Source: Saccostrea cucullata (taxonomy: Eukaryota). From it: a DNA stretch of 64,000 nt. Below the pieces are notes generated by a model. The model worked only from the letters and a program-made list of their open reading frames with translations, had not been told where the DNA came from and did not search any database. The position numbers were made by a program, and so were the translations under genes. Where the stretch lies: NCBI RefSeq assembly GCF_032062105.1, contig NW_026921687.1, forward strand, positions 1 to 64,000, read 5' to 3'. Below, piece by piece: positions 15,601-57,121 of the stretch. How positions within the stretch are numbered: position 1 is the stretch's first letter; the number at the start of each line of letters is the position of its first letter.

Positions 15601-18600
15601 ACACTTGGCTACTCAAAGGAGCAGGTGGATGCCATTCAGAAACTCCGCAATGCAAAAAACGATTATGAGAGACTGGGACTGCCTCCAGGTGCTACAAAGT
15701 AAGTCACGTAAAATAAGTCACATAAACATAAGTCACGTTAATATGAGTCATGTAAACTGCTACAAGGTAAGTCATGTAAATTGGTGTCTGTAGTATTGAG
15801 TCCAAACTCATGAATGTAGGCCAGCTAATGAAATTCTACTGGTACTCTGTTCTCAAAAAAATCCAAATGCTTCAGTTTTGAGATCTTTATTAAGAACTAC
15901 TCTTTTATGACATTGAATATATAATTTACATGTATATATTAAATATCCCTTTAGATCTTATTTTGGTTCATACCTCAGAAATTTAATATGAGGCTATTAT
16001 GGTTTCATTTTAATCTATATTCTGTGAGTCAACTGTTGCATGCCTGCAAAAAAAATGGAAAAGATTCACGTGCAACTGCAGCACATGGATATTTAAAGTA
16101 GGAAATCAGTAAAAGGCGTACAAGAAATCTTTATCATGACAATCATTCTCAAATTACAAAGTAGGCATATTAGATGGTTACTGATTCAGAAGTTTTTTTC
16201 AGTAAGAGGAAAGTGAATTGGAAAATTTAGCAGCACAATTAAGGGCCACTGTTTTTTTTTTCCGGGGGGGGGGAGAAGTTTTGAGGAGATGCATTGCTTG
16301 TTATTTTTTTTACTGATAGTACAGATTTTTAATGAATTCCGTACCTATTTCTAACAATATATGATCTTGTTAATACAGTATAAACTCCACCCTTGGAGCC
16401 ACCACTAACGGATAGGATGTAAACTAGAATTTACCCAGGTATCACGATTTAATAATGAAAAGCTTGAGCTCAAATCGTTAAGAGAAACTAATTTAAATCA
16501 CTGTTTGCTTCTGACTAAGGTTTGTATAGATGTGAAAATGCATGCAGCTTCTAAGTATGAGTTACAAAATATGTTATGCATGGAATGATGTTAACGCCTT
16601 TTTTACTTTTTACTAAGCTGAAGAAAACAGTCTCTTATTTCATGAATGTTCTAAAGGGAGGCTAGACTGTTATGTAGGGGAATTTAATGACACTTTTTTT
16701 GCTTGCCCTGATCTAAAAGCTCAGAAAATAAAAGTAAAGGAAAATATAAAACACCCTCAAACAATCATGCATGCTTATAATAAATTCATTCTTATAGTGA
16801 AGTGATTTTCATTTCATAATGGCCTTAAATCATGTCGCAAAATTATCTATATAACTTTATAATGAAGAAAAATGCCTCTCCTTGTTACTTCATGTACATT
16901 TCTTGTTACAAGTTATGTGCACTTTTTACTGTAAAAGAAAAATAGGTTTATTGGGGGAAAAAATAAAGAAATAAAAAATTAATGAACAGGTTGTGTTTAT
17001 GACCTTTGGCGACCTTGGTTAGATCATTAAATTCCCTTGGTTGTCCACTGGTTTTATTACATCATTAAACGAACATCTTGTGGAGTGTTAAGGGGGATAA
17101 TTTGAAGTCTGTTTCATGTTCCATAGTTTAAACACACGAAAATGTTTATCACAATGAATATTGTGTCATCTCAGAAAATTATAAATTATGTACACAGTAC
17201 AGTTTCAAGGCAACTATTTTAGAAAACTTAATCTAAAGGTATAAAGTGACTAGGGTTGTAGATAAGTTGTTAATAAAATTTATACTCATTGTAATCTTTG
17301 TCTTTTGAAAATCTTCATGTAGAGAATGCTACAGTTATTTTAATTGTGACCTTTAACCTTTGTCTAGCTCCTTGGAATCCTTTCCTTTTCGTTGAGGTAA
17401 CTCTCTAGTTTCCTGTCTCTTCTGTTGAAGCTGGGTGTACTGTAGATGACTCTGTTTAATTATAACGTCTAATTAAGACATCATTATTGCACAACAGCTG
17501 AAAAAACTCCTTTTTTCTTGCTCAACATATTCCTCTTGCTGATAAAAATTGGCTTTTTTATTTGTAAAAAAAAATATGTTATTGCATTAATCAGGGATAC
17601 GGTATATTAATACCTATAAACTTGAAATATTTTATAAATATCAATATTTAGCTCTACTAGTCAGAGACTAGAAGAGTAAATGCAATGATAAAGTGTCTGT
17701 TTATCTGTCTGTTAATTCCTTAACAATTTTTTAAACAGTTGCAGTTCAGTTAAGTAACCAATACACTCTACTAATATTCTGTGCATTGATTATGACAATA
17801 GTCATTAGTGTTGCCATGGATACTAAAAATAGAATTTTTTTGTGAAATTCTATCAAAACACTACTCAACGTTTAGTTTTGGACCAATTTCAGTATAACTG
17901 GATACAGAAGTAATATATGTATATACCTAGATACCACATAATTCTATTGACTGGTTTTTTTTTTTACATCAAGAAATGGTATAGCCATGATTACAAAAAA
18001 TAAAATTTCTGTGAATAATTTCTCTCTAAAAACTACTCCCACAGTCTCAGTCAGCAAGACTAAGATTTCAATAATAAACAAGAACGTAGACCATACCAAG
18101 ATACACCAAGCACAAACCAGTAGAGCTGCAGTCTTGTTACAGATTTCTGATTTTTAGCTCTACTGGTCAGAGACCAGAAGAGCTTATGCGATAGTAATGC
18201 GTCCGGCGTCCGTCGTCTGTCCGTCTGTCTGTAAACAATTTTTTAAAATGCTACTCCTCCTACAGTTTTGGTCTGATTTCAATATAACTTGACACACAAG
18301 TAGACTACACTAAGATACATAATTCTGTGTATCGGTTTATGATTTCGATGAACAGTGTTGCCGTGGTTACAAAAAATAGAAATTTCTGTGAAATTCTTTT
18401 AAAATGCTACTCCTCCTACAGTTTTGGTCTGATTTCAATATAACTTGACACACAGGTAGAATACACTTAGATACGTAATTCTGTGTATCAGTTTTTGATT
18501 TCGATGAACGGTGTTGCTGTGGTTACTAAAAATAGAAATTTCTGTGAATTTCTTTTAAAATGCTACTCCTCCTACAGTTTTGGTCTGATTTCAATATAAC

Positions 18601-55900: not shown

Positions 55901-57121
55901 ACAAAATTAATTTTGATGACGAGAAATTTTATGGATAAATTTCATATGAAATGTTAACCTGTTGATTGTTGCTTGTAATGATGAGAGAACTTTCCCCAAC
56001 TTATCGACAGATGCTGATAACCATGCTGTTTTGTCAAGCCAATTTCTCTGATGCAAGCAAACCATCATTTTTCACTTGTATTTATAATAAAATTTGACAA
56101 TGGATTATATTCATAACAAGGCGAGGAAACACTGTTGCTTTTGCTAAAATTTCTTGAACATAAAGGATGTAACCTCTGGCCCATCCTACTAAGAGTTATT
56201 TGATATCATATGTGCTGTTGCAGGGGATGAGATAAATTTATTCCAAATAGAGTACACATGTACTTTCATGCCTTTGCAGGACAGGATTTTTTTTCTTATT
56301 TAATGGAGGACATGGGTTCCAGCCAAAGTCAATTATTTTCATAAAAGAAAATAATAAGTTGGTTCCCATGTTCCATTTGTCTTTGCTTGGTTACCATATT
56401 TGTCTGTCTACCACATTTGCTTGGTTACCACATTTGCCTGTCTATCACATTTGTTTGGCTACCACAAGGTAGCCACACTTTTCTGTTCAGTTGCTTGTAA
56501 TGATGAGAGAACTTTCCCCAACTTATCGACAGATGCTGTTAACCATGCTGTTTAGTCAAGCCAATTTCTCTGATGCAAGCAAACCACAGAAAATAAAGAA
56601 CTTTGTCTTTAGACAGTGGTTAATGTCCAACTGTGTCCTATTTTAAGATGTTTTCCGACTTATTTTTCCTGTACTTGTGTTTTAGGTGGACGAGTCTGGG
56701 GTGGAAAGTAAAGACATTGAACTTGTCATGTCACAAGCCAACGTCTCCCGATCGAAAGCCGTCAAGGCGCTTCGGAACAATAATAACGACATTGTCAACG
56801 CTATTATGGTAAGTTCTGTAGATTATCAACAATCAGTAATAAAGACATTGTCAACGCTATTATGGTAAGTTTCAATCAGTAATGTCATTTTCTTCAGTGT
56901 ATAAGAAGCTTTTAACTGCCAAAAGTTCTTGAATTAACGAACCATTTCTAATGTTAATAATGCTGATTCATTTGTGTCTAGGTGATAATATTCTAAATAT
57001 GGACCATTCCACAATCAAATAATTCCTTTGTCATACAGTAACCTTTTCTGATAATTTTTTTACAGAGACCATACTTTTACTTAACACATGTATCTTTGTT
57101 TTTCAGGAGCTGACGATGTAG
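52988..57121 (+). CDS. NACA: Nascent polypeptide-associated complex alpha, 210 aa; exons 52988-53119, 53545-53638, 53885-54015, 54797-54934, 56686-56808, 57107-57121
   Basis: [91 protein letters not shown] near 57179. Confidence 0.97.
54272..54354 (+). ncRNA. Candidate intronic box C/D snoRNA (family unassigned)
   Basis: TGATGA at 54285-54290, CTGA at 54341-54344, flanking stem GAAGCC/GGCTTC, located in a TOP-type host gene. Confidence 0.55.
54381..54532. repeat. Two-copy 76-bp tandem duplication
   Basis: agaacaacatgtacatagtgctggcc...cagatctaaat at 54381 and 54457. Confidence 0.9.
55258..55347 (+). ncRNA. Box C/D snoRNA, SNORD12-like, copy 1
   Basis: Stem GCTTG/CAAGC, box C ATGATGA 55266-55272, guide CTTTCCCC, TCGAC, C'-like ATGCTGA, AAGCCAATTTCT, box D CTGA 55336-55339. 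Confidence 0.85.
55969..56060 (+). ncRNA. Box C/D snoRNA, SNORD12-like, copy 2
   Basis: Near-identical to copy 1; box C 55978-55984, box D 56048-56051. Confidence 0.85.
56491..56582 (+). ncRNA. Box C/D snoRNA, SNORD12-like, copy 3
   Basis: Near-identical; box C 56500-56506, box D 56570-56573; ~100 nt upstream of the 3' splice site. Confidence 0.85.

What the first reader, a model, noticed from the sequence alone, without database searches (positions are those of the whole stretch)
15691..56871. Recurrent duplications that copy an exon's 3' end plus its splice donor into the intron: seven cases in four genes
Seen: DNAJC27 (15691-15712 recopied at 15759-15780); ASB (29385-30868, ~50 units); annexin gene (49782-49811 recopied at ~49712-49740, 45830-45854 at 45761-45785, 44164-44212 at 44001-44049); NACA (94-bp unit at 53043/53137/53231, and 56788-56815 recopied at 56844-56871). 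I noticed no comparable acceptor-straddling copies. Inference: either a mutational process coupled to 5' splice sites, or a selective filter in which such duplications are harmless because the first donor wins. They create arrays of decoy donors and raw material for alternative splicing.
Basis: partly seen in the sequence, partly recalled or inferred. Interest (0 to 1): 0.7.

Follow-up and report, generated by a model that had tools for sequence, protein, structure and literature searches.

The report
Splice-site echo repeats in oyster introns
In this rock oyster, short local duplications copy exon edges with their splice signals into introns, about twice as often at exon ends as at exon starts; this known, mostly silent kind of repeat likely looks donor-biased because copies that would break the longer acceptor signal are weeded out.

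Summary
All seven copies are in the sequence: 7 of 40 donors in four genes carry an echo. The window lies in a hot region (about 4% of donors elsewhere; 11 of 48 beside earlier hits). The splice site sits uniformly within donor units, against a donor-anchored mutation process. The donor excess is confined to units with under 30 intron bases (34 of 53 donors, 5 of 23 acceptors; 66% expected; cut-off set after seeing the data). Likely cause: acceptor copies too short to carry a branch point and pyrimidine tract are purged. Relatives' DNA shows gains and losses at the same genes; their RNA shows only first donors. The kind is known (amphioxus mirages, human F7/CBS, chicken exon stuttering) and this scan noted it before, also in this genome. 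Unexplained: exon edges exceed intron-interior background.

The parts
15691..15780 (+). DNAJC27 intron 6: donor GT at 15699, four 14-15-bp intronic units, echo of exon end + donor at offset 68 (echo scores higher than the true donor, 8.2 vs 5.8; its use would add an immediate stop)
29384..30867 (+). ASB (ankyrin + SOCS box) intron 3: about 50 units of 32 and 27 bp made of the last ~27 exon bases plus the first intron bases; true donor GT at 29411, next acceptor 31266
49712..49811 (-). Annexin intron 4: exon end + donor (49785) echoed about 70 nt downstream, CA microsatellite between
   Evidence: below the 24-bit score because of masking
45751..45854 (-). Annexin intron 13: donor 45831, echo at offset 69 (in frame, 23 codons, no stop), partial echo between
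43989..44212 (-). Annexin intron 17: donor 44195, 41-bp intronic units, echo of exon end + donor at offset 164
43743..43820 (-).
53043..53295 (+). NACA intron 2: true donor 53120; recent 94-bp copy (53137-53230; absent from runs X1 and X2) and older degenerate copy (53231-53295; present in X1, absent in X2)
56781..56880 (+). NACA intron 6: true donor 56809, echo at offset 56; junction lies on a TAAT microhomology; variant present in run X2, absent from one low-depth contig of X1
53579..53650 (+). NACA exon 3 donor (53639): single in the window, duplicated in two contigs of run X2
44871..44930 (-). Annexin intron 15 donor (44893): single in the window, tandemly repeated in run X2
12685..23428 (+). 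Host gene DNAJC27 (Ras + DnaJ), 7 coding exons
28268..31386 (+). Host gene ASB-like, 4 exons traced (5' end not traced)
37865..52560 (-). Host gene annexin A6-like, 26 exons
52628..57121 (+). Host gene NACA, 7 exons

Best explanation
These are ordinary short local duplications (median unit about 50 bp) that cross an exon edge in a duplication-prone region of a rock-oyster genome and likely persist because the splice site nearest the exon is still the one used, while acceptor copies too short to carry a branch point and pyrimidine tract are likely removed by selection. Shown: echoes at both donors and acceptors; about twofold donor excess; clustering in hot regions; uniform breakpoint placement at donors; lack of short-intron units at acceptors; gain and loss between individuals or species. 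Inferred: origin by slippage or microhomology-mediated repair followed by unequal exchange that grows some into arrays; selection as the cause of the missing class; use of the first donor in the window's own haplotype. A donor needs only about 9 bases, so almost any duplication leaves the first donor intact. An acceptor needs about 30-40 intron bases (established knowledge), and the authentic acceptor is the last copy, so it works only if the unit carries that much intron.
For: Unseen DNA: 24 donor vs 12 acceptor echoes in 568 predicted exons of other contigs; about 14 vs 10 distinct boundaries in a homology-anchored neighbour gene (raw 20 of 55 vs 14 of 55 sites); 11 vs 0 in 48 exons beside earlier hits; total 49:22, P=0.002. 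Implanted duplications are detected equally at donors and acceptors. Exon share of the unit is uniform for donors (KS P=0.68) and skewed for acceptors (P=0.01). Units with <30 intron bases: 34 of 53 donors, 5 of 23 acceptors, 66% expected for both; with >=30: 19 vs 18. Echo dinucleotides are mostly intact (37 of 43 GT, 22 of 23 AG). Both transcription strands of the contig show donor echoes. RNA of relatives: NACA joints from first donors in 1095-2857 reads per run, depth 0 in 53236-53389 and 53698-53851. The S. echinata annexin has no insert at the three echoed donors. F7 experiments show the most upstream of identical donors is used (PMC1557585).
Against: A pure filter predicts donors at intron background, but they exceed it: 24 seen vs 9.8 GC-matched (acceptors 12 vs 8.6), and 17-23% of donors vs 2.6-2.8% of intron-interior positions in hot regions; simulated detection gain is only about 1.2-fold. 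The 30-nt cut-off is post hoc (25 nt P=0.006, 20 nt P=0.07, Mann-Whitney P=0.03) and unit parts are approximate: only 28 of 53 donor and 8 of 23 acceptor events are clean gapless head-to-tail copies. The first sample alone showed no bias (11 vs 10 of 414), the neighbour gene little (P=0.54), and the 11:0 set was chosen mostly beside donor hits; without it P=0.052. Events cluster by gene, so P values are optimistic. Most exons are my own ab initio predictions (30 of 36 exact on the training genes). The RNA comes from relatives whose echo genotype is unknown, and joint tables were cut (21 and 105 rows not shown).
Confidence: 0.65

Rival explanations
1. A mutational process tied to 5' splice sites (for example transcription pausing, R-loops or RNA-templated repair at the donor) makes these duplications preferentially.
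For: Donors exceed GC-matched intron background 2.4-fold while acceptors do not clearly; hot regions reach 11:0 and 7:1; new independent donor echoes appear in the same genes in run X2; repeated events at one NACA donor.
Against: Breakpoints are not clustered: intron part ranges 2-162 nt, exon share uniform. Acceptor echoes with long intron parts are as frequent as donor ones (18 vs 19). Acceptor arrays of 54 and 14 copies lie in the neighbouring gene.
Confidence: 0.13
2. Exon edges in general (GC-richer, methylated or protected from deletion) gain or keep duplications faster than intron interiors; this would add to, not replace, the filter.
For: Intron background rises from 0.6% in AT-rich to 3.0% in GC-rich windows; coverage peaks at both boundaries.
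Against: GC matching removes only part of the donor excess; the protection effect was simulated only for small indels. Alone it does not explain the donor/acceptor difference.
Confidence: 0.12
3. The copies are assembly or polishing errors.
For: The 94-bp NACA copy is absent from both DNA runs laid; annexin exon 11 in the same contig looks corrupted; no raw reads of this individual were available.
Against: Copies are diverged to different degrees; X2 shares the last NACA echo and X1 the old NACA copy; a second contig (C12904) carries three of the same echoes with other array lengths; haplotig-like pairs share echoes.
Confidence: 0.05
4. The decoy donors are kept by selection as back-up sites or sources of isoforms.
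For: GT stays intact in most echoes; the annexin intron 13 echo is in frame without a stop; 6-16 and CBS use two pseudo-sites (as cited in PMC1557585).
Against: Echoes come and go between close relatives; donor offsets are in frame at the chance rate (18 of 53); intact GT is partly built into detection; no downstream joints listed.
Confidence: 0.05

Closest known systems
Amphioxus 'mirage' minisatellites (Adh3; globins BflGb6, BflGb9). PMC3087553: matching passages read
   Same: Tandem copies of an exon-intron boundary, units of tens to ~160 bp, length differences between haplotypes, both 5' and 3' boundaries affected, normal splicing reported.
   Different: Described gene by gene; no genome sample, no donor/acceptor ratio in the passages seen. 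Here a mollusc, many two-copy early stages.
Human donor-spanning VNTRs: F7 intron 7 (37 bp), with 6-16, CBS intron 13, LMNB2, PDGF as cited there. PMC1557585: abstract, introduction, discussion read
   Same: First unit spans the exon-intron junction; identical pseudo-donors follow; most upstream site is used.
   Different: Shown by mutagenesis in mammalian cells; not tested in oyster. Human cases are single loci; here 4% of sampled donors and about 20% in hot regions.
Chicken 'exon stuttering' on dot chromosomes. PMC12954441: abstract, results section 7, first part of discussion and passages read; supplements not read
   Same: Exon edge plus donor or acceptor copied into the adjacent intron; median 4 copies, exon part median 36 bp; strong regional clustering (190 of 5,572 dot-chromosome introns); polymorphic length.
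   Different: Birds, GC-rich dot chromosomes; oyster introns are about 32% GC. The text read gives no donor/acceptor split (its Fig. S5 list may allow one).
CBS 844ins68. PMC2630376: matching passages read
   Same: 68-bp duplication of an intron/exon junction where the distal, exon-side site is favoured and normal mRNA results: the counterpart of the acceptor echoes.
   Different: One human polymorphism; the passage calls the sites 'donor' although the junction is intron 7/exon 8.

Membership tests
Boundary-spanning minisatellites (mirage / exon stuttering / F7 type) | First (or last) unit spans a genuine exon-intron boundary | tested here: met
Boundary-spanning minisatellites (mirage / exon stuttering / F7 type) | Copies are local, in the adjacent intron, imperfect tandem units of tens to hundreds of bases | tested here: met
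   Median unit 51 (donor) and 56 (acceptor) nt, 2-54 copies
Boundary-spanning minisatellites (mirage / exon stuttering / F7 type) | Coding sequence stays intact | tested here: met
   Open frames through all echoed exons; 96% identity to S. echinata annexin with no inserts there
Boundary-spanning minisatellites (mirage / exon stuttering / F7 type) | Length or presence varies between haplotypes or individuals | tested here: met
   X1 and X2 differ from the window at three NACA donors and one annexin donor; C12904 vs C3824 arrays differ. Whether these are alleles or species differences is not known.
Boundary-spanning minisatellites (mirage / exon stuttering / F7 type) | Authentic site is used, pseudo-sites mostly silent | tested here: inconclusive
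   Only first donors seen in three RNA runs of a relative, carrier status unknown, NACA only
Boundary-spanning minisatellites (mirage / exon stuttering / F7 type) | Both donors and acceptors can be copied | tested here: met
Chicken-type sequence stuttering | Confined to high-recombination, GC-rich chromosome domains | tested here: inconclusive
   Regional clustering shown (11 of 48 vs 24 of 568), but chromosome position and recombination rate are not available; region is not GC-rich
   23 acceptor events; uniform placement
Intron gain by tandem duplication of an AG|GT proto-splice site | Duplicated unit wholly exonic and spliced out as a new intron | tested here: not met
   Echoes lie in existing introns; annexin protein is collinear with its orthologue

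The most novel reading that the evidence does not exclude
Oyster genomes hold hot domains in which a transcription- or exon-linked process duplicates exon edges several times faster than intron interiors (about one donor in five echoed), and splicing rules then sculpt the survivors: acceptor copies persist only if they carry a full branch-point/pyrimidine module and are almost never in frame (2 of 23), which would make these natural alleles a genome-wide readout of splice-site choice.
Probability: 0.2. Interest if true: 0.65.

Novelty: new member of a known kind. Interest (0 to 1): 0.36.

Why it matters
The repeat type is known. What this adds is a measured donor:acceptor ratio near 2:1, regional hot spots, and a simple testable reason for the asymmetry; searches found no paper giving these for bivalves (open-access library only). 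At about 4% of donors and 2% of acceptors the oyster genome would hold thousands of natural duplicated splice sites (extrapolation from 568 exons), a resource for testing which of two identical sites the spliceosome takes. Practically, echoes mislead read mappers and gene finders: half of the NACA reads were placed on the echo donor by a relative that lacks it, and my own predictor chose echo donors.

Tried and rejected
RNA joint 53211->53543 (about half the reads) looked like use of the second NACA donor; rejected as mapping ambiguity, since the DNA run with the same species label lacks the copy and no reads cover the unit junction region beyond it. Preferential decay of echo GT/AG: not seen. 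Donor-fixed breakpoints: not seen. Detection bias between donors and acceptors: none in simulation. Chromosome-strand polarity: echoes occur in + and - genes. Rows dropped before counts: of 674 + 247 + 68 predicted exons, 430 + 161 + 48 passed filters (score, length, not interspersed repeat, away from ends; single-exon kinase loci, one haplotig and contig C3823 left out); 6 array-internal false exons and 7 haplotig-like exons were removed; one acceptor hit (L115, coding repeat inside the exon) was removed; one removed array (L088) looks like a donor array and was not counted; another removed array (97 bp, C3824) proved to be an acceptor array and is counted in the neighbour set. The 14 vs 10 figure is a hand collapse over paralogous or haplotig contigs and echo rows. 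Two of 55 donor events gave no echo with the simpler matcher and are missing from the 53. ASB, DNAJC27 and the three annexin donors could not be tested in RNA (laying calls spent; annexin depth near zero). Literature searches returned nothing; a look-up of earlier notes on donor/acceptor bias returned nothing.

Full report
Setting. The window is G000:C3824:1-64000. An annexin exon matches a protein named 'annexin A6-like [Saccostrea cucullata]' at 99%, so the host is a rock oyster. I traced four genes and 40 introns; Pfam confirms Ras + DnaJ, ankyrin + SOCS box, annexin, NAC + UBA.

Observation. All seven copies exist and span true donors. A gapless, composition-weighted score across each boundary, with microsatellites masked, gave 6 of 40 donors and 1 of 40 acceptors at 24 bits or more; shuffled DNA reaches this at 0.05% of positions. 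The seventh donor case is hidden by the mask.

Are they real? Mostly yes. Laid DNA runs of relatives show a patchwork. X1 has the old degenerate NACA copy but skips exactly one 94-bp unit. X2 has neither, but shares the last-donor echo and has two echoes the window lacks (NACA exon 3 donor, annexin intron 15 donor). A second contig of the neighbouring gene carries three of the same echoes with different array lengths. The 94-bp copy alone has no outside support.

Genome test. I trained a small exon finder (30 of 36 internal exons exact on its training genes; canonical donor matrix after self-training) and applied it to stretches anchored on kinase, myosin, kinesin and DEAD-box matches, chosen without regard to repeats. 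After filters and removal of haplotig-like exons, 24 donors and 12 acceptors of 568 exons had echoes. The two batches differed: 11 vs 10 of 414 (9 after removing a coding repeat), and 13 vs 3 of 155. In the 308 homology-supported exons the count was 12 vs 9. The neighbouring EGF/LamG gene, anchored on an Ostrea protein, has 20 of 55 donor and 14 of 55 acceptor sites echoed, about 14 and 10 distinct boundaries, including acceptor arrays of 54 and 14 copies. Eight stretches next to earlier hits (six beside donor hits, one mixed, one beside acceptor hits) gave 11 donors and 0 acceptors in 48 exons, confirming hot regions (P=2e-5 against 24 of 568). Unseen total 49:22 (P=0.002); without the last set 38:22 (P=0.052). 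So the bias is about twofold, uneven, and not exclusive. Events cluster by gene, so P values are optimistic.

Why more donors? Implanted duplications are found equally at both ends. If a process were anchored at donors, one breakpoint should cluster; instead the exon share of donor units is uniform (KS P=0.68, n=53), whereas acceptor units are skewed to long intron parts (P=0.01, n=23). Units with fewer than 30 intron bases make up 34 of 53 donor and 5 of 23 acceptor events, against 66% expected for both; with 30 or more the counts are 19 and 18. The cut-off was chosen after seeing the data and weaker cut-offs give weaker P. The inference: at a donor the authentic site is the first copy and needs few bases; at an acceptor it is the last copy and needs branch point and pyrimidine tract inside the unit, so short-intron acceptor duplications are purged. 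Echo dinucleotides are mostly intact (37 of 43, 22 of 23), so tolerance likely comes from site choice, not decay.

Which site is used? In three RNA runs of a relative the NACA joints start at first donors (1095-2857 reads per joint and run) and the intron bins holding echoes have depth 0 or only exon-level depth. The apparent second-donor joint at 53211 is a mapping artefact. These animals' genotype is unknown and minor joints may be among rows not shown, so this is weak. The S. echinata annexin has no inserts at the echoed donors. F7 mutagenesis supports the first-donor rule in mammalian cells (PMC1557585).

What remains unexplained. Intron-interior first-copy coverage is 1.15% in the sample, rising with GC from 0.6% to 3.0%; GC-matched expectation is 9.8 donors (24 seen) and 8.6 acceptors (12 seen). 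In hot regions the interior is 2.6-2.8% against 17-23% of donors. Longer survival of exon-anchored copies gave only 1.2-fold in my simulation, which lacked large deletions. Either exon edges duplicate faster or echoes beside exons are shielded from deletion. Also, nearest acceptor echoes are in frame in only 2 of 23 cases (P=0.013; donors 18 of 53), an unreplicated lead.

Origin of units. Not shown. A TAAT microhomology at the last NACA junction and TGAA-like overlap at the ASB array ends fit slippage or microhomology-mediated repair; only about half of donor events are clean gapless tandems; nested ages at one NACA donor and two-period structure in ASB show repeated rounds.

Comparison. The arrangement matches amphioxus mirages (PMC3087553, passages; both boundaries), human F7-type VNTRs (PMC1557585, abstract, introduction, discussion), CBS 844ins68 (PMC2630376, passages) and chicken exon stuttering (PMC12954441, abstract, results section, part of discussion, passages; supplement unseen and may hold a donor/acceptor split). 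Earlier notes of this scan report the same kind in at least 20 genomes and twice in this one; they gave me the chicken paper and the mirage name, and I did not check their loci.

Verdict. Real, a new set of members of a known repeat kind. Interest 0.36.

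Noticed in passing
window 46526-46648 (-), annexin exon 11: The exon is about 41 nt longer than its 82-nt paralogue, holds stops, and contains pieces of a high-copy repeat; the database protein reads differently here from the S. echinata orthologue. Either a broken allele or a polishing error.
   Followed up: partly
window 1-11000 (-): A long LINE-type open frame (985 aa), an upstream 278-aa frame, and fragments with reverse-transcriptase- and tyrosine-recombinase-like sequence (DIRS-like; labels recalled, not searched).
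   Followed up: no
window 18237-19729 and 41665-41973: 156-bp and 166-bp tandem arrays inside introns, resembling the central repeats of oyster Helitron-like elements (resemblance recalled).
   Followed up: no
window 32567-34165 (+): Intronless 532-aa RING-finger (TRIM-like) gene between ASB and annexin.
   Followed up: partly
window 52488-52650: NACA and the annexin gene are head to head; their first exons lie within about 70-140 bases, suggesting a shared promoter.
   Followed up: no
G000:C1292:1203917-1205884: An intron-poor, 38-52% identical copy of the neighbouring EGF/LamG gene with stops, possibly a retrocopy.
   Followed up: no
G000:C12904, C6871, C23764, C15372, C13235, C15892: The neighbouring gene is spread over several short contigs in two to three divergent versions, nearly every third exon edge echoed; arrays up to 54 copies may be what breaks the assembly here.
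   Followed up: partly
all 23 acceptor events: Nearest echo offset is a multiple of three in only 2 of 23 cases.
   Followed up: partly
window 55260-55345, 55990-56063, 56492-56585: An about 75-bp intronic segment occurs three times, dispersed, in NACA intron 5.
   Followed up: no
G000:C3823: A cluster of several actin-like genes on one 101-kb contig.
   Followed up: no
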